From positions 1 to 58,456 of the forward strand of contig JWZX01003199.1 in assembly GCA_001275005.1 (NCBI GenBank): 58,456 nucleotides of DNA, read 5' to 3'. Origin of the DNA: Chrysochromulina tobinii (lineage: Eukaryota). Made by a program: the position numbers and the translations under genes. The first letter of the stretch is position 1. Each line of letters starts with the position of its first letter. Under the pieces are notes generated by a model, which was given only the letters and a program-made list of their open reading frames with translations, was not told the DNA's origin and searched no databases. Below are positions 23,566 to 55,908 of the stretch, piece after piece.

Positions 23566-24466
23566 TCAAAACCGTTCGTACTCGACCTCGAAGCCGCACG
23601 CACAGCGCTTGGTCCACGTGTCCTTGGCCTCATCGTACGTCTCGTCGGGCATGAAGACGTGCGTGTGCGACACAAACGCCGACTGCTGCGCTATGTGCTT
23701 TGCAGCCGCGGCTGGCCGCTTAGCCTGAGGCACGAGGATGGCTCCAGTGGCAATCAGAGGCAATCAGAGGCAATCAGAGGCAATCAGAGGTCATCAGAGG
23801 CCATCTCACCTGAGGCACGAGGATGGCTCCATCGCGCCGCGCCTGCTCACGTTCGGCCGCCTTGCGCTTGCGCGCCTCGCCCTTGACGACCCGATCACTC
23901 ATGCGGCGCTCGCGTTCGTTGAAGAGCCCTTCCGAGCTGCCCCACGCCTGCAGCGCTAGCGCCTCTACCTGCGTGCGCAGGAAGAGCTTCATGTCGCCGC
24001 CGTGCGAACGGCCCGACTGCGCGTATGGGTTGGGCCGGAGGAGGCAGCCGAGGCCGCCGCGCTCCTTGGTCAGCTGCCGATCGGTGAGAAAGTATTCGCC
24101 CTTGACTTTCGTCTTTATGATCAGCTCGTACTTGCCACCAGGGCCACGGGCCGCCTGCTGGCAGTCGTAGCACGCGCTCACTCCAAACGCTGCAAAGAAT
24201 TTCGGTTGTCCGCTCGCTTCGCCGCACTCATCGCAAATGCCCACCGTGCGCGGCGCGTGGTCATCCGGCGGCGGCGGTAGCACCATTCCCCGCTCCTGCC
24301 GCTCCAGCGCGTCCAGTGCTGCCTCACCCTCATAATCAAAGTCGTCGCTCTCCACGGGCGCCGTCACTTTCCGAGGTGGCGGTGGAACACCTCGCTGCCG
24401 GTTCACCTGCTGTGCCGGTGGTGGCTCGATGTAGTCGTCCTCGGCAAAGAAGCCGCCGCCTTGCAT
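23566..24466 (-). CDS. XPA: DNA repair protein XPA/Rad14 homolog, join(24466..23810,23724..23566), ~271 aa
   Basis: C4 zinc finger CDEC...CYDC. XPA_C motifs KYELIIKT...EYFLTD, PNPY, GDMKLFLRTQVE...WGS. C-terminal HTHVF...KRCACGFEVEYE. Confidence 0.9.
23725..23809 (-). other. Repeat-type intron in XPA (85 nt)
   Basis: GTGAGA donor, (CTGATTGCCT)n core, CAG acceptor. 23-bp direct repeat at 23724-23746 and 23809-23831. Confidence 0.9.
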
Positions 24467-24637
24467 TTTTCGTGTGAAGGCGCGATTCTTCCCGGAATCA
24501 ACACAAGACTCAACCGGAGACGTCAAAAATATGCTTCTCACGATTGTTTTCCGGCCACGCTTCCAAGAAGTCCCATCAGTGTGTTTCTATGGCTGCAAGT
24601 GGGGAAAAAGGCGAGCTTATTTCTCTCGCCACCCGCC

Positions 24638-27133: not shown

Positions 27134-27138
27134 GAGCC

Positions 27139-27295
27139 GGGAGGCGCACGAGGGGACCTTCACAGCGCCGTATTGAGCACCCTCGGTGAGGCGCACGAGG
27201 GGACCTTTACAGCGCCGTATTGGTCACCCACCGGGAGGCGCACGAGGGGACCTTCACAGCGCCGTATTGGTCACCCACCGGGAGGCGCACGAGGG
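27139..27295. repeat. 47-bp minisatellite, ~3.3 copies
   Basis: GAGGCGCACGAGG recurs at 27141, 27188, 27235 and 27282. Confidence 0.9.
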
Positions 27296-27305
27296 CGTCG
27301 ACGGC

Positions 27306-30070: not shown

Positions 30071-31155
30071 CTAGGCTCGAAGTGAAGGCCGACCAGCGCG
30101 GTGGCCCTTGATGGCGCCCTCGAGCTCCTTCGCCACCGCGGCGCGCACCTCCTTGTTGGGTGTGAGCCGCTTCGAATCGAGATGCAGGCCCGTGAGAGGT
30201 GACGTGTCGTGCCGCTCGAGCCATTGGGTGATCGCGTACCTGATGAGGGAGGCAATCAAGAGGTCATCAGTGGTCATCATCAGTGCCGCTCGAGCCCTTG
30301 GGTGATCGCGTACCGTTCGTAGACGTGATGGTCGCACGTCGTGACTGGGTCGACGAGCAACGCGTGAGTGATCGGGCACAGCAGCGAGGGAGACAGCTCC
30401 GGAAGCAGCGACTCGAGCATCCCTTCCATCCCTTCCGACCCTTGCGAGGCGGATTCGTCAGTTTCGTCAAGCTCGTCCTCATCGCCGTCGTCCGAGGAGC
30501 TTTCGCAACGGCTGCACGCGTTCAGCAGGAGCCTGAGACGGCGCTCGTACTCCTCCTTGGTGACGGCGAGCGCGGGGCCACCCGGCAGGCACGCGCGCAG
30601 CTCCTCAGTCGAGGCGAGGTCCCGCGGCAACGCCCCGTCACGTGTCCGCAAGTCGGGGTTGGAGCCTCGCGCGACGAGCAGCTTTACGACGGCGAGATGC
30701 GGCGCGACGCGACCGCGCCTGGGGGTGGCCGAGTCGCGGCACGCGTAGTGGAGCGGGGTGTACTGCTCGATGCCGCGTGCGTCGATATCGGCGTGATGGT
30801 CGAGCAAGAGCTTGACCACCTCGAGATGCGCTGCGCTGGCCGCGAGGTGCAGGGCGGTGTTCTTACCCTTGTTGACGGCCTTGATCAGGCTCGGCTCGCA
30901 GCGCAGGAGCATGACGCACGCCTCCAAATGGCCACGCACAGCCGCGTGGTGCAAAGGCGTGTCCATGTATGCATCCTGCGCTTCCAAAGGGCTGAGCACG
31001 AAGAGTGACTTCTTCAAGCGAACCAAGTCGCCGTCCTTAGCCGCAAGAATCATGTAGCGCGTATCACAGGATGACACGCCCGCGTAGCGGCGGGCCTTCT
31101 GCTCATCTTCAGGCGAGCTCAGCCGCGCGGCGCGCGAGCCGAGAGAGGCTCCCAT
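30071..31155 (-). CDS. Ankyrin-repeat U-box E3 ubiquitin ligase, join(31155..30314,30239..30071), ~336 aa
   Basis: Ankyrin motifs TPLHHAA, TALHLAA, TPLHYAC. U-box LLCPITHALLVDPVTTCDHHVYER|YAITQWLERHDTSPLTG...LTPN is completed by splicing intron 30240-30313. MGASLGS start resembles a myristoylation site. Confidence 0.88.
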
Positions 31156-31726: not shown

Positions 31727-33810
31727 TCATGGTCCGGATGTTCCGGTGCTCGTGCTCGGCGCGGGCGCCGCATGAACGCGCACGACCTTGACGCCGGCTG
31801 CAATGAGAGACCTTTGTAGCTCGGCGATCCGCCGCTCGGCATCCTCTCGGACCAGAGCCGCGCCCGCCTCGGCCTCCTTCGCGATTCGATCAGCCGCTTG
31901 CATCCCCCGATCGAGCTCGAGCTCCGCGCGTGAGGCCACCTGATGATGGAGGCAATTCGTGGTCATCAGAGGCTCAATCAGAGGCTCAATCAGAGGCAGT
32001 GAGAGCTCGCATCCCCAGATCGAGGTTCGAGCTCAAGCTCCGCTCGATGATGGTGGCCATCCGATAGCCATCCGATGTGATGAGGCAGGCAATCAAAGGC
32101 AATCAGCCAGCTAACAGCCACAGCAATCAGTGAGTCACTCAGGTCGGGCTCGAGACGGCGCGCGTTGATGAGGCAGGCAATCAACCAGGAACCAGCAATC
32201 AGAGGCACTCAGGTCGGGCTCGAGACGGCGCTCATGAGGGAGTACTACGCGGGAGGCGCGCCACCTGCTGCAGCAAGAGCTGCTGCTGGTCGAGCTGCGC
32301 TTGCATACTCACGCGCGCCGTCTCTAGCTGCTCGTCGAGCTCTTCTTGCATGCGCGTGCGCGCCGTCTCGAGCGCCCGCTGCAGCGCTTCGCGCTCCACC
32401 TCCAGCCGCGCCTCAAAGCTCGCGGTGAGCGTCGCCGTCACCTCCGCGGTCACCTCCGCGGTCACCGTCTCACGCGCCTCCTTCCAAGCGTGCACTGTCG
32501 CTTGCTGCCAGGCTTCCGCCTTCGCCGCGATGACTGCCTTGCTGACCATCTCGTCCTCGTGCCGCTGCCTCGCGACCTGACGCGCCTCCGCCTCGGCGTG
32601 CTCACGTTGCTGAAGGGCCTCGTCGGCCTTCTGTGCGGCACGCTGCGCGAGCTTCGCCTGCTCGGCCAGCCGGCTGACTGCCGCCTTGGCCGCCGCTGAC
32701 TCCGCCGCAGCCCTGCCCGTCGCCTCCATCGCCTCGTCCACGGCCTGGGAAGCCGAGCGCCTGGCGGCGGCGATAGCAGCCACAGCTTCCGTCTCGGTGG
32801 CCGCGAGCTCAGCCCGAAGCGCACCACACAGCGCGTCTCGCTCGGCCAAAGCGCGCTTCAGTGCGTCAGCGAGCTTCGCGGCCGCGGCGGCCTCGTTGGC
32901 CGCCATTGACTCCTTGAGCATACCTGATGAGGATGTAATGAGGATGGCCATCAGAAAACACATCGGAGGTCATCGCTCATCGGAGGTCATCGGAGGTTAT
33001 CGTAGGTCATTAGAGGCCATCAGTAGGCCATCAGAGGGCTCCTTGAGCAGAGCAGCTACAGAGCAGCCTACTCGTGCTCTCCTGCAACAGTCTCCGACTG
33101 CTCACGAGCATCGCATTCGTATCCTCGAGCTCGTGCTTGGCTTTCGTCTGGAAGCTCCGCGCGCGCTCCTCGGCAATGGAGAGGCTGCCCTCAAGCTCGG
33201 AGAGAGCGCGCGAATAGCTGGCGCGCTCGATGGCGCCGCGCTCGCTCTCCGCGCCTTTGGCCGTTAGCAGCCGCTCGAGCACACGTCGACTGTTGCCCAG
33301 TGGGAAGTCGGGCGCGAGCAACTTGCCGCCGTTGTCGAGCAAGCAGCTCAGGATTTCGGAGGAGAGCGCGGCGTTGCTCGTCTGAGCCTTGACGCCGTGT
33401 CGCAGGAGATGGCACGCTGCGTCTCGCGCGCCACCCTGCGCCAGGTCCCTACCTATCACCAAGAAGATGGTCGCGAGCTCTTCGGCGAGGTGCGCCGTCT
33501 CCGTCTGGAACTGCTGCTGGTTCGACATTTCTGCGGACGCTCGTGAGGCGGCGTCAAGATTTCGTCCGTCTGCTGAGCTCATGCTGCTGCTGTTACCCTC
33601 TCGACCAGACGTCGTGACGGCCAACCCCCACCCTGTTGGCTGAAGGCCCGCCAAGCCCAAGGGACCCAGAGTCTTGCTGTGCGGGCCAAGGCGGTCAGCG
33701 TTGAAGACCTCCACCGAGGATGACGACTTCATGACGCGCTTACCCACTTCCTTGAAGCGCAGCACCGCGGGATCAAGTGTCGCCCGCGGTGTCAATTGTC
33801 CCAAGGGCAT
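31727..33810 (-). CDS. Coiled-coil protein, join(33810..33072,32923..32265,31939..31727), ~536 aa
   Basis: Three ORFs join in frame through GT-AG introns 32924-33071 and 31940-32264, both with ...CATCAG acceptors. A/E/Q-rich heptads. Confidence 0.7.
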
Positions 33811-33941: not shown

Positions 33942-36704
33942 CTATGAAAACGACGAGTCTCCCCATAGGGAGTCGTGGGGGCATCGGCCGCACGTGCGCA
34001 TGCAAATGTCGCGCACGAATAGAGAGTTCTTGCGCGAAGGCACCGGGCTGTCGCAGCTGAACGCGCCGTCCCGAGCACCAAACAAGCTCGTGGCGAGGCC
34101 GCCGGTGCCACTCCTGTTCCCCCCAGTGCTGCCCCCTGCGTGGTCCCCCCCGACGAGCGCCGCGCACGAGCGTGGCGCAGTCTTCCACAGCTCGTGAGCC
34201 TCGAGAGTCTTCCACGCGCGCAAGGTGGTTCGACGCATCTGCTCGGGGTACGCGTCGGCGCACGCGCTGTGCCGGTTCGCGCGCTCAAGGGACGCCTGCA
34301 GCCTCGCGGGCAGCGGCTGCGAGGCCGCCTCATCCAGAGCGCGTAGCAGCAGCTCGAGCGCATCGCCAGGTGTGTCGCCCATCCCATAATGCATTCGATG
34401 TGCATGCATGCTGATGGACTGTTGCATCTGGCGAACGCGATCAGCCGGGATGGCGCGCAGTGCGGCCGCGACGTCAATCTCGCCCGAGAGCACCTGTGAA
34501 CCAACGGCGAGCGCAGTGTGAATGAACCAAGGGCGCCCATCGACCGCCATCGGTCGCAATCAGCCGCAATCAGCCGCAATCAGCCGCAATCGGTCGTACT
34601 CGGCCGTACTGGCCGTACTCCTACGCACTCCGACGCACTCGCACCTTGCGCATATCGAGCAGCACGCTCGACGTATCGCGAAAGGGCCCCCAGTGCAGGG
34701 GCCACAGGTACTGGTATGCATGGGGTGTGAAGATGACTGGTATGCACCCGAGGGTGAGCGCGTCGACCTGCGACTTGCGGTGGTCCGCACATCAGAGGCC
34801 GTCAGAGGCCATCAGAGGCCATCAGAGGCTATCAGAGGCTATCAGAGGCAATCAGCCGCGTACCTGCGACTTGCGGTGGTCCCCGAAGCCCGGCGGCTCG
34901 AGGCAGAAGACAGACTCGCGCTTCGATCGAAGGGCGTCGACAAGTACGGTATCCATTCGATAGTGGGACACAAGCCGACAAGTCGCGTTGCCGAGCTGCA
35001 GGCATTGCTTCACGAGCAGCGAGCGCAGGCGCGACGCCTCTGGGGATCCTTCGGTCGAGCCGCCATAGCTCATGAGGTAGGGGCGCGTGCTTGCCTGATG
35101 AGGGTTGGGCGCCGTGCTGAGCGCCGTGTTGAGCGCCCATGGCCGAGGCTCACCCGCGCGCAGATGCACGCTCGACACGAGCGGTGCCGAGAAGAGCCGT
35201 TGGCGTACCTGATGAGAGAGGCAATCAGAGCCTGATGAGCTTTTGGCGCGAAGGCAGCGGTGCCGAAAGGAGCCGTTGGCGTACCATCGCGCCAAAGGTA
35301 CTCTCGCCGCTGAGGAGAGAGGCAATCAGAGCCGTTGGCGTACCATCGCGCCGAAAGTACTCTCGCCGCTGAGGAGAGAGGCAATCAGAGCCGTTGGCGT
35401 ACCATCGCGCCAAAGGTACTCTCGCCGCTGAGGAGAGAGGCAATCAGAGCCGTTGGCGTACCATCGCGCCAAAGGTACTCTCGCCGAGCAGCTCGCTATA
35501 GAGCGGCCCCGTCCTGATGGCAGGCGTCAGGGCGAGCAGCTCGGCGTTCGCGCGGCGCGACTCGACGAGCAAGTCGTACCTGATTAAGGAGGCCATCAGT
35601 CGCCATCAGTAGCCATCAGCCGCCATCAGCCGCCATCAGTCGCCATCAGCCGCCATCAGACGCAATCAGCCGCCATCAGAGGCAATCAGTCGCAATCAGA
35701 GGCCGATTCGACGAACCAGTCGTATCTGGTAGGTGGACGCGCTGTGCTGAGCACTAGCATGCAAGGCAGGTCATCAGTGGCAATCAGCGTACGCAGGCTC
35801 CGCGCCTCGACAGAAGCGCGCCGTGCTGAGCACTTGCATGCAAGGCAGGTCATCAGTGGCAATCAGCGTACGCAGGCTCCGCGCCTCGACAGAAGCCATC
35901 GAGCTCAAAGAAGTGGATGGGCACGAAGACGTGCTTCCTGGCGGTCTGTGGGGACCAGTGCTCGAGCACGTGTCGCCAGTCCTCCTCATACAACCGCTTG
36001 CACACGTGCCACAAGCGCTCCTCGTCGGCCGGGGGCATGAACTCCCACACTCTCGCGATCTCCTTAGGCGTCGCTTGGCGACTTGGAGGGAACTCGAGCG
36101 GGACAAGGAAGAGACTCGCCTCTTGAGGATCGCTCACGAGCCGACAGCGCTTCGAGCTCAGTACGCGCCCGAGCACCACGGCCCCTGTATTGTGCTGGTC
36201 TGAATAGAAGAGCCACGGCTCGTTGAGCGGCCACCCAAAGCCGACGTCCAGGAGCTGCTTGGAGCTGAACTGGGACGCGTTGTACACGAACACGGATGGG
36301 CAATCACGCTCGCCCACCGCGCTGTTCGAGGTCGACGTCGCGACGACGGCGGCGGCAGTCCTCGTGGCCGCCGCCGGAAGCTCCACAAATCCTTCACCAC
36401 GGGCAGTTGTGGCGATGGCATCGACGCTGTCGACCACTGCAGCACGTGCTGCTGCTGATGTAAAAATGGTAGTGCCCGACCGTCGGGTGAGCTTTGGAAG
36501 TGCCGTCTCCTCGCTCGCCTGTGCTTCCAGTTGCTGCTGCTGCTGCTTCTGTTGCTCCGTGAGTGAGCGCCACCGCGCGCTGTGCTTCTTGTTGCTCGCA
36601 CGATGAGGCGACTCGAACGCAAGCAGGTCCGACTGAAGGATCAGAGAGAGCGCTGCCAAGAGCACCAGAGCATAGGCAAGCAGCTCGCGGTTGGAGCACC
36701 TCAT
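33942..36704 (-). CDS. Exostosin-family (GT47) glycosyltransferase, join(36704..35872,35579..35462,35208..34864,34767..34645,34493..33942), ~656 aa
   Basis: N-terminal signal anchor. Motifs CPSVFVY, DPQEASLFLVP, SVFCLEPPGFGDHRKSQ|VDALTLGCIPVIF, LRAIPADRVRQMQ. All four intron phases are consistent. Confidence 0.85.
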
Positions 36705-37470: not shown

Positions 37471-37791
37471 TCACAGCTCCTCCTTCGAGCAAACGCCGTC
37501 CACACCAGGACAAAGCACTTGCTTCTCGATGTTCCACGTGTACTGCACCTTTTCATGAGGGTCATAGACATTGCTGATCTTTTGAGAATCTGCGAAGTGA
37601 GCACGGGCGAGCTGGGGGCTAGAAAAGAGTCAAGGAGATCAGGGTGGCTGCAACGGTAGCATTAGCGCACGTTCCGCTCGGAGCAGCGCCTCCAGCTCCT
37701 CCTTCTTGAACTGAGGATCCTGCTCTGCAACCGAGCTGTTCACTAACGTGGCGACGAGTACGGCCACCGAAGTAAGCATCCACCGCGGCAT
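37471..37791 (-). CDS. Small secretory-pathway protein with C-terminal KEEL, join(37791..37671,37589..37471), 79 aa
   Basis: Signal-peptide-like MPRWMLTSVAVLVATLVNSSVA. GTGCGC...TCGCAG intron at 37590-37670. Spliced product ends CPGVDGVCSKEEL-stop. Confidence 0.6.
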
Positions 37792-37840: not shown

Positions 37841-38010
37841 GTCAAGTCAAGTCAAGTCAAGTCAAGTCAGCATTTATGACGTGTCGCCTCTAGATGGATC
37901 CCCCTCCGCCATCTCCATCGACTCCCGTCCTCCACTGCTGGCTTCCGGAGCACACTCGATAGGCTTCCGTATGGTTGTCTGTTGTTTATGTATAGACTTG
38001 ACTTGACTTG
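37841..38010. mobile_element. MITE-like element with (GTCAA)n/(TTGAC)n inverted ends
   Basis: Inverted pentamer arrays at both ends. ATTTGCAAG direct repeat at 37832-37840 and 38011-38019. 41 bp (37971-38011) match 57307-57347 exactly in reverse complement. Confidence 0.65.
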
Positions 38011-38256
38011 ATTTGCAAGTCAAGTCAAGTCAAGACAAGACAAGACTATCGGATAGTCAAGTCCAGTCTAGTCTAGTCTCAATTAAATTCAATTCCATTC
38101 ATAAAAACTATTTGAACTTATCCTTTTCACACCCCCATTTCGATGAAAATGAGGCCTTCACCCTGAAAATGAGGCCTCACTCACACCTCGATGGTCCCCG
38201 AATGGTGGCGCGAATCGCTTCACATACCCGCGCCTAGGAGCTCCACTTCGCCACCG

Positions 38257-39000
38257 ATGGAGCCCCTGCTCTCGCTCCTCGCGAATGTACGCACCGACTA
38301 CCACGCTCAAGGGCTGCGGACCGCGGCCTTAGCGGCTGATGTGCGCAGCATGGCCTTTCGGCGCGCCATGGAGCGGCTTGACAACAGCTCGCCGGCGTAT
38401 GCCTTTGCGACGCTGAGTCCGCGACAGTGGTGGCGTGCGCTGCGCCTCCTCGGAATCAGGGAGCCCAGTTTCATGGCACGGTCGGCGCTGCCTGAACGAG
38501 AGTGCGAAGCAGCGCTGGCACCAGCAAATGTGACGCAGCTTTTTGAGCAGTCCTTGCGGTGGCGCATGTTGACCGTTGGTGGGTTGAAGGGATCCGGCAT
38601 GCACCTGCATGTCGATAACCCTCCATTCAGCAGCTGGCACGTGCAGCTTCGCGGACGAAAGCGCTTCACATTGTGCCGTCCGACCCGTCCACTCAAATGC
38701 AGCTCGACAACGCTCGAGCCGCTTGCGAGCCTGTACTACCCATCCTCTTACGCGCACAGCACGCACACACTGGACGATGGGGCCATCTCGCTCTCACGCT
38801 CGCTCATCACTCCCAGCCACGCCGCTCGCACGGCCGACGCCCTCGGCCGATTCTTTGGATGCTTCCCGGTAGGCTCAGGCTCCGCACTGATCGCTGCATA
38901 TCCGATGGCTTATCCGCGCCTGTGCGCCGCGCTGCGACCGTGCTTGAGGAGGCTCGCGCTCTGGGGGCACGGGGTCGACGCTGTGGGGCGAGTAGATTAG
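38257..39000 (+). CDS. JmjC/cupin-like domain protein (~247 aa)
   Basis: GSGMHLHVD (HxD), WHVQLRGRKRFTL, LEP...LYYPSSYAHST (distal His). Confidence 0.75.
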   Translation: MEPLLSLLANVRTDYHAQGLRTAALAADVRSMAFRRAMERLDNSSPAYAFATLSPRQWWRALRLLGIREPSFMARSALPERECEAALAPANVTQLFEQSLRWRMLTVGGLKGSGMHLHVDNPPFSSWHVQLRGRKRFTLCRPTRPLKCSSTTLEPLASLYYPSSYAHSTHTLDDGAISLSRSLITPSHAARTADALGRFFGCFPVGSGSALIAAYPMAYPRLCAALRPCLRRLALWGHGVDAVGRVD

Positions 39001-40422: not shown

Positions 40423-43400
40423 TCAATCTTCATCGCCATCCTTTTCGTCGCGCAGCTGGAAGCGCAGCCCTCTGGTGAGCTTCTCCGGCCCCCCTGCAGC
40501 CTTTCGCTCCCTCGCGGGCGGCCGGCTGCTCGCCGTACTCACCTGGTCGGGGAAGCACTCAGACGCACTCAGTGGCACTCAAACTGACACAGACGCACTC
40601 AGAGGCAAAGCTATAGGCGTGGTCTCACCGACGAGAGCCAAGCGCTCGTCGAACGGCCGCGGCTCGTAAAGCGCTTGGCCGCCTCCGTCGCGCGCGCCGT
40701 CTCGAGCGCCTTGCGCACACCCTCGATGCCCGACACGACGCCCTGCGCCCACGGGTGGCGCACCAGGCACTCGTCGTACGTCTCGAGGGCCTCTGCGTAC
40801 CGGCGCAGCCCGTGCAGCGCCGCCGCGCGCGAGCGGAGCGCGCCTGATGAGGGAGGCAATCAGCGGTCATCACAGTTCATCACAGTTCATCAGAGGTCAT
40901 CAGAGGTCATCAGAGGTCATCAGAGGTCATCAGAGGCCGCGCGCGAGCAGAGCGCGCCTAATGAGGGACGCACTCAAGGACGCACTCAAGGAAGCCACAA
41001 TCAGAGTTCATCAGAGGCACTCAGAGGCACTCAGAGGCACTCAGAGGCACTCAGAGGCACTCAGAGGCGAGCAGCTTCGCGCACCGATATGTCGAGGCTC
41101 GAGGGCGAGCGATCAGACGCAATCAGACGCAATCAGACGCAATCAGAGGCGTAGGCATCTCACCGATATGTCGAGGCTCGAGGGCGAGCGCCTTCTCAGC
41201 GTCGGCCAGGGCGCGCTGATGCTTGGATTGGCGCACATGCACGTTCGCGCGGCGCGCATAGCTTTCGGCATGGGTCGCATCGAGGGCAAGCGCCGCATCG
41301 AGCTCGATCTGCGCCGCAGCGAGATCGTCGCGCTCGAGCGCCGTGTCGGCGCGCCGCGTGAGTTCCGTCAACGAGTCGGACGGGTGGGCGGCGAGAATGG
41401 TGCTGGTGAGTCGCTCGGCGGTGCTTGCCTGATGAGGGACACAATCAGAGGTCCATCAGAGGGACATCAGAGGTCCATCAGAGGTCCATCAGAGGGACAT
41501 CAGAGGGCCATCAGAGGTCCATCAGAGGGCCATCAGAGGGCCATCAGAGGTCCATCAGAGGGACATCAGAGGGACATCAGAGGTCCATCAGAGGGACATC
41601 AGAGGGACATCAGAGGTCCATCAGAGGGCCATCAGAGGGACATCAGAGGGCCATCAGAGGGACATCAGAGGTCCATCAGAGGGACATCAGAGGGACATCA
41701 GAGGTCCATCAGAGGGCCATCAGAGGGACATCAGAGGTCCATCAGAGGGACATCAGAGGGACATCAGAGGTCCATCAGAGGTCCATCAGAGGGACATCAG
41801 AGGTCCATCAGAGGGACATCAGAGGGACATCAGAGGTCCATCAGAGGCACTCAGAGGTCCATCAGAGGTCCATCAGAGGTCCATCAGAGGTCCATCAGAG
41901 GTCCATCAGAGGTCCATCAGAGGTCCATCAGAGGGACATCAGAGGCACTCAGAGGTCCATCAGAGGTCCATCAGAGGGACATCAGAGGGACATCAGAGGT
42001 CCATCAGAGGTCCATCAGAGGTCCATCAGAGGTCCATCAGAGGTCCATCAGAGGGACATCAGAGGCACTCAGAGGGACATCAGAGAGTAAATCGCTCTCG
42101 GTCTCTGTAGCTCTCGGCGGTGCTTGCCTCGGTGGAGTCGCGCGCCGTTCCGAGCAGCGCGAGGGCCGCATCCAGGTGCTGTGAACGCACTGCATCCGAG
42201 GAGGCGATGGCATGTGCTCGCAACAGCGCGCGCGCCGACTTGATGACATGAACGACGACGCCCATCGAATGCGCGTGCTCGGCCGCCATCGTCGCCGACG
42301 CGTTGCTCGAAACGGAACTAGTGCTGGCGGCGGCGGAGGCGGCGGTGGAGGCGGCGGTGGTGGTGGAGGCGGCGGCGGCGGTGGAAGCGGCGGCGGTGGT
42401 GGCGAAGGAGGAGGAGAGGGTGGAGACGGCATCATCTCCCAAAGGCAGCGGGGGCGGTTCGTCTACCGGATACCAGTACGCGAGCTGCTGCACAGGCCGG
42501 TACGTGCCACTGCGCTGATCGAAGGCTGTGAATAGGTGCGGAATGAGCTCGTGCTCGATGCGCGCCTGATGAGGGAGGCCATCAGACGCAATCAGACGTA
42601 CTCAGACGCAATCAGACGCACTCAGATGGGGAAGGAGCTCGTGCTCTACACATCGCCTCTGCCGCCGACGGGAGCTTCTCGAGATTCTCATCAGCGGCAA
42701 TCAGCGGCAATCAGTGGCAATCAGCGGCGCAATCACCTCTGCCGCCGACGGGAGCTTCTCGAGATTCTCCTGCGGAGGTGCGGGGTGCACACTCAGAGGC
42801 CGTCAGTGGCAGTCAGTGGCGCAATCAGCGTCATAATCAGTGGCAATCAGTGATGCAACCAGTGACCATCAGTGGCAATCAGTGACGCAATCAGTGGCAA
42901 TCAGTGACGCAATCAGTGGCAATCAGTGACGCGATCAGTGGCAATCGGAGACGCAACCAGTGGCAATGACCTGGGCGACGTAGCGCACGCCACGCGGGCC
43001 TCCAAGCAGAGAATAGCAGTCGCCATCATCGGGCACCATCCGGTAGAAGGGCTGCGATGGCCCTGAAGGGAGGCCGACGACCCCATCCCACTGGGAGACG
43101 TCGATCTGAGGACGCGCGTCCCAGCCAAAGACGACGGCGCGGAATCCGAACTTGCGATGGCGGAGTACCTGATGAAGGACGCAATCAGACGCACTCAGGT
43201 GCAATCTCCCAAGGGGCAGAGTACCTGATGAAGGAGGCAATCAGACGCACTCAGATGCAATCTCCCAAGGGGCGGAGTACCTGATGAAGGAGGCAATCAG
43301 ACGCACTCAGGTGCAATCTCCCAAGGGGCGGCGCACCTGACGAATCAACGCGACGAGGCAATCAGAGGCCCTCAGAGAGGCCCTCAGATGAAAGCAGCGG

Positions 43401-45580
43401 CCCTCAGCGGCCCTCACGCCCGTACTAGATGAGGGGAGCAATCAGTTGCAATCAGTTGCAATCAGTTGCAATCAGTTGCAATCAGTTGCAATCAGTTGCA
43501 ATCAGTTGCAATCAGTTGCAATCAGCGGCCCGTACCTGGCCCACATGGAACTGGATGCCCTCGCGGCCCGACTTAGCCTCGCGCTCGGCGAGGTTGGTCG
43601 CGAGATATTCCTCGATCTGGCCCACGTGCCTGATGAGGGAGGCCATCAGCTGCCATCAGCTGCCATTCGGTGCCATCAGTTGCCATGAAGTGCCATCAGC
43701 TGCCATCAGTTGCCATCAGCTGCCATCAGCTGCCATTCGGTGCCATTCGGTGCCATCAGTTGCCATCAGCTGCCATCAGTTGCCATCAGTTGCCATCAGT
43801 TGCCATCAGTTGCCATCCATTGCCATCGATCTTTCTCGATCTGGCCCACGTGCCTGATGGCGCGGTACGTGGCGCTGAGCGCCGCCCTCGAGGCCATTGC
43901 AACGTCGGGCGCCGTGCCGGGCGCGGCGGCGGCGAGGCGGAGTGTGGCGTTCACGGCGCTGCGATGGGCGTTCACGGCGCTGCGATGGGCGTTCACGGTC
44001 GCGGCGGCGGCATCGTCGCCGGCGGCGGCCTCATCAGCGCCCGACACAGCGCCGTCCTCGTCCTCGACGTCGTCGTCCTCCTCCTCCTCGTGCCCTTGCT
44101 CGGCATCCATTGCCAAGGTTGCCGGGGCGCCGTGCTGGGCGCTCGCCGCCGCCGGAGCCAACGGCCCTCCGGCCGCGCCAGACGCCGCGCCGTGCCGAGC
44201 ACTTGCATGCGCCGCGCCCTCGTGCATCGCTATCCCTGCGAGCGTCATCGCCGCCTCGGCTTGCATGCACGAGCGCACGGCGCGCCGCGAGAGCGCGCGC
44301 ACGTCGCGCAGCATGCAAGTGCTCGGCACGGCGCGGCTTGGCCCGAGGCGGCGGGCAGGGGCGGCGCTCGACACGACGCCCTCGCCGAGCAGCTCACGGG
44401 GAGAGGCGGTGGCGCCCGGGACGGCGCTCGCTCCGCGCGGGTGCAGCAGCTCGATCCCGCCGGCCTGCTCGCGCTGTGTGGAGCGGACGAGCGCTGTGTT
44501 GAGCGCATCCACGGCGTCGGCGGGAGAGCGGGCAGAGGCCACCGCAGAGGCCAGGGTTGCAGCAGCAGACGCCGCCGCTGCGCTCTCCGCCGATGCCGAT
44601 GCCGCCGCCGCCGCCGCCGCCGCCAGCCGCCGCCTCGCGAGTTCCGTGGCTTCCCGTTCGGTGGCCGCGAGCACGAAGGCACCCATGCCGGCGGAGACGC
44701 TAGAGAACGAGGCGAGCAGCGGCGCCACCTGATGAGGGACGCACTCAGCGGCAATCAGCATGCAATCAGCATGCAATCAGCATGCAATCAGCATGCAATC
44801 AGGGTTGGGCATGGGGCGAGGGCTGGGAGCCGGCTGAGGCGGAGCAGCGGGCGGTACCTGCCGCAGCAGCGCCGCCAGCGGTGGCTCGTGTCTGGAAGGC
44901 TCGAGCTCGCTCCCCGGATAGGCGAATGCGAGCTGCTCGGAGGGCACGAAGCGGCCGTGCGTGCCATCAAACGCCGGGAAGATGGCCGCGGACAGGCTCG
45001 GGTGCAGGATGCGTCGATGCGAGAGCGGCACTCGCTCGAGATTCTCCTGGGCGACGTATCGAACATCACGTGGGCCACCGAGGTGCTCGATGCAGTCGGC
45101 GAGGTCGGGGAGCATCTTGTAAAAGGGCTGCTCGGTGCCGCTCGGCAGGTTCTGCACGCCGTCCCACGAGGAGACATCCACCGCGGGCCGCCGGTCCCAC
45201 CCGATCACGACGGCGCGGAAGCCGAAGACCTTGTGTCTCAGAACTTCGCCGATCTGGTAGTGGATGCCTCGCCTGTCGGCCTTGTCCACGCGCCGCTTGA
45301 CCGTCTCCTCGCACTCGCTGTGCAGCTCGCCGAGCGCGCGGAGGGCTTGGAACGCGCCGTCCAGGGTGCCTCCCTCGTCGCGCCACGCCGCGCGCAGCAG
45401 CGCCTGCAAGCCACGCTGGTCCGTGGGCTTGAGCCGTCGCGCGAGCGCGCTCACATTGTCAGGGAGATTTCCGAGGGGCACCGTGAAGCGCGAGTGGCGG
45501 ACGGCCGGTGCCATCGTCGAGCGCCACATCGCGCGGTAGAGACTGAGCGTCACCGAGCGCTCTGCGGCTGGGATCGCCAT
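40423..45580 (-). CDS. Protein with two YccV/HspQ-like (hemimethylated-DNA-binding) domains and C-terminal TPRs, join(45580..44858,44728..43854,43629..43536,43168..42971,42769..42737,42565..42128,41428..41164,40843..40629,40542..40423), ~986 aa
   Basis: Domain 1: YQIGEVLRHKVFGFRAVVIGWD...QPFY...RYVAQENL. Domain 2 is rebuilt by splicing: FHVGQ|VLRHRKFGFRAVVFGWD...QPFY...RYVAQ|ENLE. TPR: AESYARRANVHVRQSKHQRALADAEKALALEP. All eight intron phases are consistent; two introns have GC donors. The last exon is less certain. Confidence 0.82.
41429..42127 (-). repeat. 699-nt GC-AG intron filled with an 11-nt microsatellite mosaic (ATCAGAGGTCC/ATCAGAGGGAC/ATCAGAGGGCC on +)
   Basis: Array spans ~41444-42085. 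17-bp direct repeat CTCGGCGGTGCTTGCCT at 41414-41430 and 42113-42129. Confidence 0.88.
43630..43853 (-). repeat. 224-nt GC-AG intron of (ATCAG(C/T)TGCC)n decamers
   Basis: 25-bp direct repeat CTCGATCTGGCCCACGTGCCTGATG at 43611-43635 and 43835-43859. Confidence 0.85.
44184..44337. repeat. Perfect 27-bp inverted repeat pair inside a predicted exon
   Basis: 44184-44210 (GCCGCGCCGTGCCGAGCACTTGCATGC) is the exact reverse complement of 44311-44337. Confidence 0.9.
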
Positions 45581-46662: not shown

Positions 46663-46776
46663 CAGATCGGATCTCGCTTGAAGATAAGGGGTCCGAGATT
46701 ACAGGGAGAACCCCCCGCTCACGTGTTCACAACGCTCTCCCATTTCACGCGACAACCGCTGTCCTGCGCCACAGCC

Positions 46777-48276: not shown

Positions 48277-49601
48277 ATGTTGCCTGGCGAGGAGGACGTT
48301 GCGCCTCGCCAGCGCCGCAAGTGGGTGATCGGCACGCCGACGCACGTGCTCCCCACTGAAAGTGGGGACTATGTGCTACTCACCCGGCCGCGGCTTACGC
48401 CTCCACCTGGATCGCCACAACTGACTCCGATCCAGCCACCACCCTTGAGAGGGCGGCCCAACCAGTTGTTTTCGCCGCCTGTGGATTGGGAGCGATTGGA
48501 GTCGCGCTTGCAGCCGCTGGCTGCGCTCAATAAGGCACCGGTGGGTGCGTCCAAACCGGACCTGTGCGTGCAGTCCAGCGGCATGCGGCTCACAGCGGCG
48601 AGGTGTGCAAGCGAGGTTGTGCAGCCACGCCGCCGAATGGAAGCGTGATGCGCATGCGACGTGCACGCACGCGCGCGAGAGGAGGTCCAGCTTGCCGCAG
48701 CGCTCCGCGAGAGCGAGCGACTCGCGGTGGCGCACCGGGCGGCGCCTCTCACCGCTGCCGAGGAGGCGGCGTCGCTCGAGGTAGCGGTGCGAGCGAGCTT
48801 GCAGCTTGGACGACGCGGCGGCGCCGAACTCGTCGGCAGTGCACGCCGCGTACGCATCGCAGTTGATTGCAGAGATGGAGCCGAGCTCTCGGTGGCTGCG
48901 GGCCGAAGGTCTTCGTCGGAGGAATCGAGTGAGGCGACAAGGAGCGGTGAGGACGCGCCAGGCAACGAAGCAGTGCCAGGCAGTCAAGCGGCGCCAGGCG
49001 AGGCGGCGGAGGCAGGGCACCTAGCGGGGGCAGGGCACACAGCGGCGGCGCTCGAAGCTGTTTGCGCGAGCGCCGCGGCGCGTGCACGATAATCGCTCAG
49101 TACGGCGCGTCGCACGAAGGCGGCTGTGGAAGAGTGCTCAGTACGGCGCGTTACGCGAAGGCGACTGTGGAAGAGCGCTCAGTACGGCGCGTCGCACGAA
49201 GGCGGTTGTGGAAGAGCGCTCAGTACGGCGCGTTGCGCGAAGGTGGCTGTGGAAGAGCGCTCAGTACGGCGCGTCGCACGAAGGCGGCTGTGGAAGAGCG
49301 ACAGCTCGTCGCCGCCATCGAAGCCAGTCTGGCGTCGCGCGCGTCGTGGCGGGGCACCGCGGACTCGGACGGGCGTTACACTCGCGAGGTCACGCGGCTC
49401 GCATGCATGCAGGCGGAGGCAGCCACATGGGCATGCACAGGGGCACCCGCCAGCCATGTCGCCATCTCGAGGTACGGCGCTCAGCACGGCGCGCGTGGAT
49501 CCCGCGTGGTGGCGCCGGCGCGGGAAGCGCCCTCGGCGCGCGGGCGATTGGACGTGCCATTGCCTATTGCACGTCGCATTCTCGAGACCTCTGTCGCCTG
49601 A
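48277..49601 (+). CDS. Putative UIM-motif protein; exon structure unresolved or gene disrupted
   Basis: Three consecutive + ORFs. The second and third carry UIM-like helices EEVQLAAALRES, EAASLEVAVRASL and ERQLVAAIEASL. Stops at 48646 and 49090 are not explained by obvious introns. Confidence 0.35.
49095..49300. repeat. 41-bp minisatellite, 5 copies
   Basis: CTCAGTACGGCGCG at 49096, 49137, 49178, 49219 and 49260. Confidence 0.92.
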
Positions 49602-50099
49602 TCGCTGATGAGGGAGAGCACTAGTGACTAGATGACCCTGCCAGGGTCTTCGGTTTGGGAACCGGTCGCGCCCCGCGCGGGCGCGGGCCCGCCCCCGGTA
49701 CCGCGCGCAGTATAAATCTAAAAAACCGTAAAAGAAAAAACCGGTAAGCGGTAGGCGCGGCGGCGAGAAATCATAACATCATGCCCTCCCAGCACTGGCC
49801 GACTGTGGGGAACGCAATCGGACAACGCGACAGAAACTGATGGTATGCGGCATGAGATCGGGCATGAGACACGAGACCAGCTTTCAATATCCACACGACG
49901 AATCATATCCCCCCCGAACGAAATCCAATCACTGCGAACTTGCATCGTTCTCCGGCTGGTGCCTCGCGCCGCCTTCCACGATCGGCTTCCACATGCATGC
50001 ACAAGATAAGTCCAGTTCTTAGTTCCGTACCCCGTGCTGTGGGCTGGGCAGCGGAGCCACCAGAGGTGCACGTGCCAAGTCCCAAGACCCTGCCAGGCT

Positions 50100-51156: not shown

Positions 51157-52822
51157 ATGCTCACGACGATGTGGACCTCGGTGGCTTTGGGCCTGCATGG
51201 CGTCGTGCGACCACCGCGAGTGGTCGTGCGAGTCGCCGAGGCTGGTTTCGTCGACCACGAAAACCTCGAGCGTGGCGAGACCTGCTCGCTCGCGCTCAAG
51301 GCGTTTGATGCCTCGGACCACTTCCTCTGCGCTGGCGCCCTCGTGCGGCGGCGCAGCTCGTCGCTCGGCTACGAGGTGCACGACTGCTGGATCGCGGATA
51401 GCATCGAGAGTGGCGTGGGGCCCAATCTGCAGACGCGCGGCGCGCAGCTCATCCTCGATGCGCTATTCCTGCACCACCTGGAGGCGAGGACGCGTGGCAA
51501 TGACGTGGTGCAATTCTCTGTCTTCGCCGGCGACGGTACCGGGTGCTACGCGGCCTCGCACGTGGCCGCGCGCTCGCGCGGCTTCGTGCGCGAGTCCACG
51601 TGCGCCGATAGTGACGAACGCACCCTCACCTTTTGTGAAGACACGGGACGCCAGCGCTATGAGGAGGAGATCGCTGCTTTCGGGACGGCGGTCGAGACGG
51701 CGCCCGAGACGGCGCCCGAGACGGCGCCTGCGACGGCGCCCGAGACGGCGGCGGCAGAGGACGGTGCGGCGGCGGCAGAGGACGGTGCGGCGGCGGCGGC
51801 ACGAGTGCAGCAGCTTCGCGTCGTGCGCGGCATCCTGCAGCACTTGCGCGTCCAGACGCCGGACACGACGCTCGAAGGTGGCTCACGAGGACGTGCCCGG
51901 CGCAGTGCCCGCCACGTCGTCCGGGGCCCAACGATGTCGTCGTCGCTCCTGACGAACCTTCCAAGAGATGACGACGACTACTCGCTCCCTCCGCATCTTT
52001 TGGAAGGTTCGTCCGGTTCGTCAGGTTCGTCAGGTTCGTCAGATGACGACGACTCCTCCCTCCCTCCGCCGGACGATGACTACTCTCTTCCAATCGCGCC
52101 TACTCGCACCACCTCAATCAGCGGCACTCATGGGTCATCAGTGGCAATCACCTCAATCAGCGGCAGCCGCGGCAGCCGCGGCTTCAGCAACGTCCTTCCT
52201 CATGGTTTCATCAGTGGCTTCAGCGACGTCCTTGCGGATTTACGCTCCGATGAGTGGCAGCCGTTACGCACCTCGTCGCGTTGGCGCAACCCGTGCTTCA
52301 TTTCGTCCTTCTTCACGGTTTCGTCAGTGGCGAGCGCGTGCCATCACGGCGCGGTGCACTTTGGCGTTGGGCCGCTCCTCGTTCTCTTGTCATCTATTCT
52401 CTACTGGCAGAATCCGGTCGGGGAGATCGCCTCCACCCTGATCGTCTCTTTGTGGCCACTGATGACCACTGATTGCCACTGATTGCCGCTGAGGGTCACT
52501 GATTGCCACTGATTGCCACTGAGGGCCACTGATGACCTTTGATGGCCTCCATCATCAGGTGAAGGAGAGCGCCCGGCGCGCTGTCGACCTTGTCACCGTG
52601 CGTGTAGGCATGGCTTGCCAGATATGGTTAGCAAGCCGCTCATGCGCACCGGGCTGGGCGCCGCGGATCTTTGGCGGGTACGCACTTGGGGCGCTCTGCT
52701 ATGCCGTCGGCCGAGTGCTCACGGTGCGTGGTCATCTGCTGCCGGGCGCGTTCGTGCACTGTGGCGTGCACCTCTTCGCGAATGTAGGCAACCTGCTCAT
52801 CTTGCCGTTGGTTCGGGGCTGA
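51157..52822 (+). CDS. Hypothetical protein with a soluble N-terminal domain and C-terminal multi-pass membrane domain, join(51157..52416,52559..52822), ~507 aa
   Basis: Repeat-type intron 52417-52558 with CCTCCATCATCAG acceptor. Spliced SSILYWQNP|VKESARRAVD and HCGVHLFANVGN. Could be two adjacent genes. Confidence 0.6.
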
Positions 52823-53401
52823 ACACTGGAACTGCCAACAGTAAACGTAAGTAAACGGGTATGCCAAGGGGAAGCCCCTTGGGTATGCGAAGCTCACCGT
52901 GCACCTTGCACCTACCTTGCACCGTGGGGCTAGGGCTGGGCGAGGGCTGGGGGCTGGGCGTACCCCCTTCATCTTCCGCCATCGAGGACGGCCCGGCTAT
53001 ACCACATGGGCTATAACGGCATCCACGCCCTGTGTGCCCACGCCACAAGCACATTGTGAGCACAATGACAAATACGAGCGCATCTCCTAAAATTCATCTG
53101 ACGTGGCGGTAGATGTTGACGCCCAGCGCTTACGTTATAGTTTCGTTATAGTCCGGTCCTCCCCGCACCTCGACCTCCACCGTCTCCGCTCCACCCTCAC
53201 CACGCGACGCCGACGACGCGCGCACGATCGTGGCGTATCGTATGGTGAGTTGTATACCCCGCGTGCCCGAAAGCCGAATATGAAGAGTTTCAGTTTCGAG
53301 TTATAACGAGTTCGCGCAATCGTGCAGAACGCGCGACGCTGAACGAGCTACGCTTGTATCATTTGAACCGAACCGAATAAGCACAAGAACGCTTTTAACG
53401 G

Positions 53402-55908
53402 CTAAGACAGCTTGAGGTCGCGTGACGTAGGCAACGGCATCCAACCCCCCACCTCCTCCGCGGCTCCATGTGAGCCGCCCGCCCCAGCGCCTCCCCCACG
53501 CGATCCTCCGTGGTTCATGCTCATCGGCAGCGCGGCTGGCCGGCGTGCGCCGCCGCTGACTCGGCCGCGGAGCATCCAGCCGATCAGGCTGCCGCCCACG
53601 CCGCTGATGAGCAGTGCAATCGGATCGCATCCTCCGGGCATCGACGACGGCGCTCGGCACGGCGCCGCGCTGCCGCCCTCGCCGCCCGCTCCGCCGCCGC
53701 CGCCACTAGCGCCGCCGCCGCCGCCGCCGCCATGCATTGACGCCTCGGCCTCGGCGTGTCCGTCGCCCGACACGGCGCCCATCCCGGCGCCCGTCCCGGC
53801 GTTCGTCGCCTTGGACGGTGGAGGCGGCGCACCGGTCGATGCGTCGTGTTGGGCGGCTCGAAGCTTGGAAAGCTCCGCTTGGCAATCGGCCTCCAGGGCA
53901 CGGTACACCTGCGATGGTCATCAGAGGTCATCAGAGGTCATCAGAGGTCATCAGAGGTCATCAGAGGCAATCGGCCTCCAGGGCACGGTACACCTGCAAG
54001 AGCCACAGCCACCAACGGAACTCAGTGGCACTCAGTGGCACTCAACGGCACTCGACGGTACTCAGCGGCACTCAGCGGCACTCAGAGGCATTCAGCGGCA
54101 CTCAGCGGCACTCAGAGGCATTCAGCGGCACTCAGCGGCACTCAGAGGCATTCAGCGGCACTCGACGGTACTCAACGGCAGTCAGTTTGGAAATCGGCGG
54201 CCTCGACGGCACGGTACAGCTGCCCGCCGAGCAATCCGTGGCTATCAAGAACAAGAGCAATCAGTGGCCATCAGGAACGGTCAGTGGCTATCCGAAACGC
54301 AATCAGTGGCAATCAGTGGCAATCAGTGGTCATCAGGAACGGTCAGTGGCTATCCGGAACGCAATCAGTGGCAATCAGTGGCAATCAGTGGTCATCAGGA
54401 ACGGTCAGTGGCTATCCGGAACGCAAGGCTGCACCTCCGTCAGCTTCGAGTGCTTGCCCTCAATCGCGTCCTCGAGCTGCTCCTTCTGCTCAAGCTTTCG
54501 ACGAAGGACGCCGAGCTGCGCCTGGACCTGCTGCTGCTGCGCCTCGGCGCTGGCCGTCTGTGAGGTCGCGCAGGGGAGCGAAGCGCCGTGGTGAGCACAT
54601 GCATGCGCCTCGGCGCTGGCCGTCTGTGATGTCGAGCACCACCATCCGAGCTCATCATCGATCATCAGTGGCCATCCGACGCCATCAGTGGCCATCAGAC
54701 GCACTCCGACGCACTCCGATGCACTCCGATGCACTCCGATGCACTCAGACGCACTCAGAGGCACTCAGATGCACTCAGATGCACTCAGATGCACTCCGAC
54801 GCACTCCGATGCCCTCAGCGCACAATCCGACACCCTCAGCTCGCACCTGCTCTCAATGAGGGAGGCAATCAGTGGCAATCAGAGGCCATCAGCGAGCTCG
54901 CACCTGCTCTCAATGAGGGAGGCAATCAGTGGCAATCAGAGGCCATCAGCGAGCTCGCACCTGCTCGAGCTGCGTCTTGCATGCGGCCTCGGCGCTCGTC
55001 GCCTGCTGCAGGCGCGAACGCGCCGTCGCGAGCTGCTTCTGGGCGGCGTTTGTGATCGTCTCGGCGCGCCCCTTCTCGTCAGCGAGCTCCTGCGTGCGTG
55101 CCTGCAGCTGCTCGCGCGTGTGCTGCAGCTGGACCAGGCAATGCTGTGCCTCCGTCTGCAGATGCTGGTCGTCGCTCAGATGGCGCTTATCTTCCGCGAG
55201 AGTGCCCGCTCGGCACACCTCAAGCTCGTTGTTGCACTGCTGGCGCGCGGCGCGGCAGCTGCGCACCTCGCGCAGCGCGCTCGTCAGGCCGGTTCGCGCC
55301 TGCTGCAGGATCGTGCTCGATAGAGCGCTCATATTGCCGGGCAGCCGTGCGGCGCCGTAGCGGGCATGTCCCTTGGGCTCGTCCTCGCCGGAGGAGGTGA
55401 GCTTGGGAGCGAGCAGGTCCTCGACGACGACGTCGGCGGCGCTGGCGGTGGCAGTGCTGGCGGTGGCGTTGCTGGAAGCAGTACTGCTGGCAGCAGTACT
55501 GCTGGCAGCGGTCTTGCTGGCGGTGGCGCGAGCGGGTGAAGGCGACAGTGGTGGCGGCAGCTCCTCGGGTGACGGTGAGGGCGGCGATGGCGATGGTGGT
55601 GGCGAAGGTGGCGGCCGTTCCTTGGGTATCGCCGCCGACGCTGCCGGCGCGGCAGCCGGATTCGACGCGCTGCTGCTGCTGGGCGCGGTCCGGCTCGGAA
55701 GGTCGCAGACGCCGCACGCAACTGGGCATGAGGCGAGCATGTACCTGCGGTTCTTCTCGCACTCACCGTTTGCTGCCCACGCGCCGCAATGGGGCGCCTC
55801 GTCGATGCACGGCTCGGTCGTCGGTCCGGTCGTCGGTGCGCCGATGACGATGACAGAGGCGACCAGGCAGAGAGACATCGATCGACGCCCGCCGCAGCCG
55901 AGAATCAT
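53402..55908 (-). CDS. ShKT-domain, mucin-like, coiled-coil single-pass membrane protein, join(55908..54961,54557..54435,53908..53402), ~525 aa
   Basis: ShK pattern CIDEAPHCGAWAANGECEKNRRYMLASCPVACGVC. P/S/T-rich stalk. Hydrophobic segment IALLISGVGGSLIGWML. Phase-0 introns at 54558-54960 and 53909-54434. Confidence 0.75.

What the first reader, a model, noticed from the sequence alone, without database searches (positions are those of the whole stretch)
23725..54960. Family of ~19 introns built from oriented CTGAT microsatellites with a shared acceptor
Seen: introns in XPA (1), U-box (1), coiled-coil (2), GT47 (4), YccV-TPR (8), the 51157 gene (1) and ShKT (2) contain 10-11 nt tandem units reading xxxxxCTGA(T/G) on the transcribed strand. 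They appear as ATCAG/CTCAG on + for minus-strand genes and as CTGATTGCCA in the one plus-strand gene. Twelve end in variants of TGATTGCCTCCCTCATCAG (acceptors at 30240, 31940, 32924, 35209, 35580, 40844, 41429, 42566, 43169, 43630, 44729, 52558). The dominant unit differs between introns. Established: CTGAT fits the CTRAY branch-point consensus, and introner elements create intron families in algae. Inference: a propagating intron family whose body is an expanding array of branch-point motifs, without the TIRs of typical DNA-transposon introners.
Basis: partly seen in the sequence, partly recalled or inferred. Interest (0 to 1): 0.8.

Follow-up and report, generated by a model that had tools for sequence, protein, structure and literature searches.

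The report
Repeat-filled introns made by exon duplication
Genes of a Chrysochromulina alga hold many introns filled with short repeats of a splice-signal-like motif, most of them also carrying a copy of the gene's own neighbouring coding sequence and one of them likely missing from sister strains, so new introns are likely still being made here by duplication plus insertion rather than by a standard transposon.

Summary
Nineteen GT/GC-AG introns in a Chrysochromulina (haptophyte) contig carry 10-11-nt CTGAT-type units, 141 unit pairs sense and 0 antisense. Four are spliced exactly in RNA contigs; 12 of 19 have RNA or homologue support. The XPA intron (perfect 22-nt copy) looks absent from most sister alleles, including ORFs on 13- and 22-kb contigs. 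A footprint-bearing intron also differs between two other haptophyte contigs. There are no TIRs, no fixed duplication length and no end-to-end element; a published screen lists 0 introner families for C. tobinii. Best reading: ongoing intron gain and junction remodelling by duplication plus filler likely copied from other introns, with arrays then expanding. Branch-point use is untested; DNA versus RNA template is open. The scan noted the same footprint earlier on another piece of this genome (e1-2577349).

The parts
23725..23809 (-). XPA intron, 85 nt, GT-AG; its last 22 nt are a perfect copy of the upstream exon end (acceptor from the duplication); likely polymorphic
   Evidence: spliced model identical to P0088; continuous and read-through alleles in one cluster
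30240..30313 (-). Ankyrin/U-box intron, 74 nt; first 31 nt copy the downstream exon start (30/31), then units and the shared acceptor
   Evidence: spliced in RNA run X18; spliced model has 2 differences from C. parva P0085
31940..32264 (-). Coiled-coil gene intron 2, 325 nt; exon copy borderline
   Evidence: restores the ORF; gapped test p 0.079
32924..33071 (-). Coiled-coil gene intron 1, 148 nt; 14-nt copy of the downstream exon start (12/14)
   Evidence: 8 of 8 exon-1 ORFs listed read into it
34494..34644 (-). GT47 last intron, 151 nt; no exon copy found
   Evidence: restores the frame
34768..34863 (-). GT47 intron, 96 nt; last 19 nt are a perfect copy of the upstream exon end
35209..35461 (-). 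GT47 compound intron, 253 nt; 59-bp units made of both exon ends plus an acceptor-like piece; removed as one piece
   Evidence: spliced in X13 and X17
35580..35871 (-). GT47 first intron, 292 nt, compound; copies of both exon ends and two copies of a second dispersed motif
   Evidence: spliced in X17; same junction in public model P0136
40543..40628 (-). YccV-TPR intron 8, 86 nt; no clear exon copy
   Evidence: spliced in X13
40844..41163 (-). YccV-TPR intron 7, 320 nt, three modules; 27/27 copy of the upstream exon end and 21/22 copy of the downstream exon start
41429..42127 (-). YccV-TPR intron 6, 699 nt, GC-AG; 15/15 exon-start copy and a 58-copy 11-nt array
42566..42736 (-). YccV-TPR intron 5, 171 nt; internal 33/33 copy of the whole 33-nt upstream micro-exon
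42770..42970 (-). YccV-TPR intron 4, 201 nt; no exon copy; by eye, the matching site in the protein's first YccV domain has no intron
43169..43535 (-). YccV-TPR intron 3, 367 nt; chain of GT..AG modules ending in a 56-bp array; the one position shared with L018, L019 and L022
   Evidence: the array has 3 and 4 more units in L027 and L015
43630..43853 (-). YccV-TPR intron 2, 224 nt, GC-AG; 24/26 exon-start copy plus 6 nt of the upstream exon end
44729..44857 (-). YccV-TPR intron 1, 129 nt; decayed, gapped exon-start copy
   Evidence: 15 of 15 listed ORFs read into it
52417..52558 (+). Intron of the plus-strand gene, 142 nt; decayed exon-start copy (11/15)
   Evidence: junction continuous in 5 of the 6 distant homologues aligned
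53909..54434 (-). ShK-domain gene intron 2, 526 nt, compound; 28/28 and 19/22 exon-start copies, each behind an older AG
54558..54960 (-). ShK-domain gene intron 1, 403 nt, compound; 20/20 exon-start copy and the second dispersed motif
52110..52165 (-). Antisense run of degenerate units between two 17-nt direct repeats, in frame inside the plus-strand ORF's linker
   Evidence: same peptide in P0024-P0026, linker short and unalignable in distant homologues
44187..44334 (.). Two opposite-strand copies (44187-44211 on -, 44310-44334 on +) of the second dispersed motif inside modelled YccV exon 2
   Evidence: 5 matches in the window, 0.00 expected

Best explanation
These are real spliceosomal introns of a Chrysochromulina alga, most carrying a 10-33-nt copy of the adjoining exon, and they are likely made and rebuilt by a DNA-repair or replication template switch that duplicates the target and likely copies filler from other introns. 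Inferred steps: (1) a broken or slipped strand leaves the exon and pairs by a few bases with a repeat array in another intron; (2) it copies units plus one splice site; (3) it returns behind its start point at an AG|GT-like match, which leaves the duplication and puts the new splice site in register; (4) the duplicated exon end gives the other site, so splicing restores the old mRNA exactly (shown for U-box and two GT47 introns); (5) products that cannot be spliced are purged, and antisense arrays, which would carry a CAG every 10 nt, are selected against; (6) arrays then grow and homogenise by slippage; (7) repeat events at existing junctions build compound introns. CTGAT likely serves as the branch motif, which would make the filler pre-adapted; this is untested.
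For: Exon copies in 13 of 19 introns against 3 of 380 permuted pairs, 6 of them exactly terminal against 0 of 380; a gapped test adds YccV intron 1. Both polarities occur (donor or acceptor from the copy), and copy length varies from 10 to 33 nt with 81-100% identity, as expected of a continuing process. Exact splicing of U-box and two GT47 introns, the compound ones as single units. XPA: of 15 cluster members listed, 9 run through the junction, 4 read into the intron and 2 are a neighbouring gene; two continuous ORFs have longest contigs of 13,255 and 21,602 nt, the same lengths listed for unspliced U-box ORFs. L018 has a 132-nt GT-AG intron with an exon-start copy and CTGAT/CTAAT units that is absent from L019, L017 and the window. 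L018's seven introns show the footprint with other repeats (permutation 2 of 5040). Neighbouring modules in one intron use different units and acceptors. Junction microhomology averages 2.2 nt against 1.2, p 0.016. Antisense or inverted inserts survive in frame.
Against: Five of 19 introns show no significant copy in either test. No donor locus for any filler was found, because no genome was held. The microhomology signal is weak and rests on 12 of 22 module rows (8 uninformative rows and 2 redundant copies dropped). Arrays are absent from intergenic DNA here, which an unguided repair process does not predict and which hints at a link to transcription or splicing. One of 8 YccV positions is shared with a distant haptophyte. 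U-box, YccV-1, coiled-coil-1 and GT47-1 introns were present in every unannotated ORF listed that reaches the junction. XPA absence is inferred from ORF calls and matching contig lengths, not from DNA that I read; transcript contigs or assembly collapse across the short repeat are not excluded. A second dispersed 25-nt motif suggests a small mobile element also contributes.
Confidence: 0.5

Rival explanations
1. RNA-templated insertion: a LINE-type reverse transcriptase primes at a nick on intron or pre-mRNA molecules (or on a short SINE-like RNA with a repeat tail) and leaves 5'-truncated copies between variable-length target duplications.
For: Variable 10-33-nt duplications; fixed 3' end and ragged 5' end in the acceptor-carrying type; strict sense orientation and confinement to introns; a dispersed non-tandem motif inside three introns and a matching peptide in a polymorphic insertion of sister alleles; a Pavlovales introner is classed non-LTR.
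Against: Donor-carrying inserts have the reverse build (XPA, 34768-34863, 41163); no A-tail seen in the introns; antisense and inverted pieces exist; no end-to-end element.
Confidence: 0.25
2. Old introns with secondary change: positions are ancient, microsatellites expand in them because CTGAT is tolerated or favoured, and local tandem duplications across splice junctions leave the exon copies; little or no new intron gain.
For: Compound introns and the 56- and 59-bp junction arrays are local tandem duplications, with copy number varying between assemblies; one position is shared with L018, L019 and L022; four introns are fixed among listed alleles; 10-11-bp intron repeats in Emiliania huxleyi are recalled from Read et al. 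2013 (not held).
Against: In XPA, U-box and 34768-34863 the whole intron is an exon copy plus filler, with no old intron left to duplicate; 7 of 8 YccV positions are not shared with L018 and L017 has no introns; presence/absence at XPA and at L018/L019.
Confidence: 0.17
3. A classical DNA-transposon introner (MITE with a short fixed target duplication) whose copies have decayed and filled with repeats.
For: Introners with a 4-bp TSD and no TIR are reported in a marine Chrysochromulina MAG; shared acceptor motif.
Against: No TIR signal (4.9 against 4.8), best pairwise identity 0.70; duplications are long and variable even in introns with perfect copies; the 2025 screen lists 0 families for C. 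tobinii.
Confidence: 0.08

Closest known systems
Daphnia pulex neo-introns from staggered double-strand-break repair (PMC4202315, passages read)
   Same: A direct repeat of the adjacent exon end lies at the far end of a new intron; presence/absence polymorphism; later internal repeats; parallel gains at one site.
   Different: Daphnia repeats are 4-12 bp in that paper; here copies reach 33 nt and the filler is one recognisable family of splice-signal repeats with a shared acceptor.
Intron gain by tandem genomic duplication of AGGT-bearing exon sequence (review PMC3443670, passages read)
   Same: A duplicated exon end supplies a splice site and the mRNA is unchanged.
   Different: Here foreign filler sits between the copies and brings the second splice site; in the textbook model both sites come from the duplication.
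Introners: Chrysochromulina sp. MAG family with a 4-bp TSD and no TIR (bioRxiv 10.1101/2022.06.06.494994, passages); Polarella and Symbiodinium ILEs with 4- or 8-nt TSDs (bioRxiv 10.1101/2020.10.14.339549, first of four parts read)
   Same: One splice site is carried and one co-opted from the duplication; repeated intron creation in algae.
   Different: No fixed TSD, no TIR, no end-to-end family identity, both polarities, tandem-repeat body, compound introns; C. tobinii scored 0 families (PMC12130899 supplement file 7).
Emiliania huxleyi introner fam24, '10bp terminal direct repeats', mechanism unknown (PMC12130899 supplement file 8, one row)
   Same: Haptophyte; longer direct repeats; donor co-opted and acceptor carried.
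   Different: Five copies of a homologous element in that table; not compared by sequence here.
10-11-bp tandem repeats enriched in E. huxleyi introns (Read et al. 2013; recalled, paper not held)
   Same: Same period and intronic location in a haptophyte, from memory.
   Different: I recall no link there to exon duplications or intron gain; I could not check the text.

Membership tests
Spliceosomal (U2-type) introns | Removed from RNA at GT/GC..AG ends | tested here: met
   4 of 10 laid introns seen spliced exactly; 8 more supported by homologous proteins
TIR DNA-transposon introner | Terminal inverted repeats | tested here: not met
   mean score 4.9 against 4.8 for permuted pairs, 19 introns
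TIR DNA-transposon introner | Short, fixed-length target-site duplication | tested here: not met
   copies of 10-33 nt
Introner-like element (any type) | Many introns homologous end to end | tested here: not met
   best of all pairs among 19 window introns is 0.70; genome-wide not testable
Introner-like element (any type) | Recent gain with presence/absence between relatives | tested here: met
   XPA by ORF calls, inferred; L018/L019 in DNA
Introner-like element (any type) | One splice site carried, one taken from the duplication | tested here: met
   six introns with exactly terminal copies
Break-repair neo-introns (Daphnia type) | Direct repeat of the adjacent exon beyond the background in other pairings | tested here: met
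   13 of 19 against 3 of 380; permutation 0 of 10,000
Break-repair neo-introns (Daphnia type) | Filler traceable to an ectopic template, with junction microhomology | tested here: inconclusive
   microhomology p 0.016 on 12 junctions; donor search impossible
Pure tandem genomic duplication | Intron made only of duplicated exon | tested here: not met
   non-exonic filler lies beside every copy
Non-LTR retroposition (TPRT) | Variable target duplication with a fixed 3' end | tested here: inconclusive
   fits acceptor-carrying inserts, not donor-carrying ones
Non-LTR retroposition (TPRT) | Autonomous reverse-transcriptase partner sharing the tail | not testable with these tools
   no genome held
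   no lariat reads; last CTRAY adenine at -17 in 9 of 19, none in 1

The most novel reading that the evidence does not exclude
Introns breed introns without any transposon: haptophyte introns are a self-feeding pool of branch-point-like microsatellites and splice sites that repair or template switching copies piecemeal into exons, in register, with a long duplication. That would be a boundary-less intron generator, active across Prymnesiophyceae, that introner screens miss because no two products are alike end to end.
Probability: 0.35. Interest if true: 0.88.

Novelty: new variant of a known kind. Interest (0 to 1): 0.7.

Why it matters
How new introns get working splice signals is an open question; outside introners, most gained introns have no identified source (PMC3443670). 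Here the filler is recognisable, both splice-site polarities can be read off the sequence, events range from likely polymorphic to decayed, and the alga is cultured and sequenced. A species listed with 0 introner families appears to be gaining introns, so homology-based screens may miss a whole route. It would also explain why haptophyte gene models are often wrong at junctions.

Tried and rejected
No whole genome was held, so genome-wide strand bias and donor searches were not run. The acceptor motif gave 0 hits in viral contigs and 14 single hits in prokaryote genomes, about the chance level by my estimate; neither was used. A candidate 20th intron ending at 35095 was rejected: it broke the GT47 frame, the ORF is open without it and RNA contigs run through it. 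It stays in the 20 and 380 denominators. Lake run X21 held only repeat matches and told nothing on intron presence. X14 and X15 could not be read. Missing RNA cover for XPA, coiled-coil and the 3' GT47 introns is not evidence against them. Seven of 10 look-ups were not in the collection. Loci L030-L048 are weak matches (24-29% identity) and were not used; L020-L026, L028 and L029 cover only parts of the gene. The giant ORFs at 1079-19494 are not polyketide synthases by Pfam. Literature: 10 full-text searches listed no paper on these repeats or duplications in Chrysochromulina. Read et al. 2013 was not held. Passages of PMC2784329, PMC4580454, PMC10290126 and PMC12480563 did not describe them. 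Supplement files 13-14 of PMC12130899 were not searched and file 1 of PMC9860276 is cut; either could bear on novelty.
Full report
Organism. The YccV-TPR protein's only named relative in the first search is from Prymnesium parvum (51%). The window's U-box and GT47 ORFs fall in 90% clusters with named Chrysochromulina parva and C. tobinii proteins. The DNA is therefore from a Chrysochromulina of that group. No whole genome was held.

Observation. The repeats are real and far above chance. The unit motif occurs 180 times on - and 15 on +, against 36.7 in shuffles, and the acceptor motif 17 times against 0.17. I placed all 19 introns (17 GT-AG, 2 GC-AG). Adjacent-unit pairs number 141 sense and 0 antisense inside them, and 1 in 53,764 nt outside. 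The commonest unit differs by intron. GC donors are common in Emiliania (56-65%, PMC4028052 passages).

Are they spliced? RNA contigs join exactly across 30240-30313 (X18), 35209-35461 (X13, X17), 35580-35871 (X17) and 40543-40628 (X13). The eight-intron YccV model gives a 969-aa ORF that aligns without gaps to five homologues at junctions 2-7. The spliced XPA model is identical to P0088, and the U-box model differs from the C. parva protein at 2 of 336 residues. The plus-strand junction is continuous in 5 of 6 distant homologues. In all, 12 of 19 have RNA or homologue support; 7 rest on frame restoration.

Thirteen of the 19 introns contain an ungapped copy of the adjoining exon end scoring 9 or more, against 3 of 380 permuted intron-exon pairs. 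Six of these are exactly terminal, against 0 of 380 (the denominators include one candidate intron later rejected). A gapped test adds YccV intron 1; two introns are borderline and three show nothing. Copies are 10-33 nt long and 81-100% identical. Two builds occur. In the first, the intron starts with a copy of the downstream exon start, which gives the GT/GC, and ends in units plus the shared acceptor (U-box, YccV 2 and 6). In the second, it starts with a foreign GT and units and ends in a copy of the upstream exon end, which gives the AG (XPA, 34768-34863). Either way splicing leaves one copy and the original mRNA. Many introns are chains of such modules: internal exon-start copies sit behind an older AG and internal exon-end copies before an older GT/GC. 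The two compound GT47 introns are removed whole.

Are they new? For XPA, 15 of 62 cluster members were listed: 9 run through the junction, 4 read into the intron and 2 belong to a neighbouring gene. Two continuous ORFs have longest contigs of 13,255 and 21,602 nt, the same lengths listed for two U-box ORFs that read into their intron. I infer these are the same DNA contigs, called without splicing, and so lack the XPA intron; I did not read that DNA. Seven distant XPA homologues also reach the C-terminus. The U-box, YccV-1, coiled-coil-1 and GT47-1 introns were present in all unannotated ORFs listed that reach the junction. Among YccV orthologues, L017 has no introns, and L018 has seven modelled, one of which shares a position with the window; L019 and L022 share it too. 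L018's introns use other repeats but show the same footprint (mean 8.3 of 12 matches against 4.6; 2 of 5040 permutations). One of them, 132 nt with an exon-start copy and CTGAT/CTAAT units, is cleanly absent from its close relative L019 and from L017 and the window. In the plus-strand gene's sister cluster, 6 of 13 ORFs examined carry a frame-shifting insertion that 5 lack, and 2 diverge nearby.

Mechanism. There are no TIRs and no two introns exceed 0.70 identity end to end, so a classical introner does not fit. Long, variable duplications fit break repair, template switching or reverse transcription. Three things favour a DNA-level switch: both polarities occur; junctions show modest microhomology (2.2 against 1.2 nt, p 0.016, on 12 of 22 module rows); and opposite-strand inserts survive in frame, namely a unit run between 17-nt repeats at 52110-52165 and two inverted copies of a second dispersed motif in YccV exon 2. 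Sense-only orientation in introns can follow from selection, since the antisense array has a CAG every 10 nt (inference). Against it, arrays are missing from intergenic DNA, which suits an RNA-linked route, and the second motif hints at a small mobile element. I give template switching 0.5, RNA-templated insertion 0.25, old introns with secondary change 0.17 and a DNA-transposon introner 0.08. That gain with long duplications is recent or ongoing I put near 0.8. Branch-point use is untested: the last CTRAY adenine lies at -17 in 9 of 19 introns.

Comparison. It works like Daphnia break-repair introns (4-12-bp repeats; PMC4202315 passages) and like the tandem-duplication model (PMC3443670 passages), and it shares splice-site co-option with introners. 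It is not a member of the TIR or fixed-TSD introners. The 2022 survey included C. tobinii and C. parva in its genome list, and the 2025 table gives C. tobinii 0 families. The nearest listed case is an E. huxleyi family with 10-bp terminal direct repeats. Direct repeats of 4-30 bp near splice sites have been reported broadly (PMC11782384, abstract only), which lowers the surprise of the footprint as such. Intronic 10-11-bp repeats in E. huxleyi are recalled from Read et al. 2013, which I could not read. Ten searches listed no description of this system.

Verdict. Observation confirmed; interpretation partly supported; a new variant of a known kind; interest 0.7.

Noticed in passing
window 1079-10606 and 10396-19494 (+): Two adjacent open frames of 3175 and 3032 aa without stops, at lower GC (55-61%), with VWA and weak AAA/NACHT hits; perhaps one giant ATPase gene or an inserted island.
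   Followed up: no
window 35739-35842, 44187-44334, 54583-54607: A second dispersed 25-nt motif, in introns and, in both orientations, in a modelled exon; high RNA-contig depth at 35841 suggests many copies elsewhere.
   Followed up: partly
window 35095-35136 (-): In-frame stretch of the GT47 exon that ends in the shared acceptor motif but is not spliced in X13 or X17 contigs; possibly an exonised module.
   Followed up: partly
window 43159-43344: The 56-bp junction array has 3 and 4 more units in L027 and L015; assembly collapse or true length variation.
   Followed up: partly
window 37589-37671: An 81-nt intron without unit pairs, spliced in X13, in a transcript whose nearby repeats are highly repeated elsewhere.
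   Followed up: no
window 37841-37869, 38016-38044, 57347-57367: 5-nt (GACTT)n arrays in intergenic DNA, in both orientations; very high depth in lake run X21 near 37848-38449.
   Followed up: no
L018 2802-2947: An intron filled with telomere-like CCCTAA runs, which contain CTAAC, and carrying the same exon-start copy; different haptophytes may recruit different branch-like repeats.
   Followed up: partly
window 49094-49300 and 49611-49630: A 41-bp array with a piece resembling the second motif, and a lone acceptor-like motif; no gene model made.
   Followed up: no
window 20148-21365 (-): ORF with a strong match to the diatom pyrenoid shell protein family PF25192.
   Followed up: no
P0096: An XPA allele that reads through the usual stop codon.
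   Followed up: no
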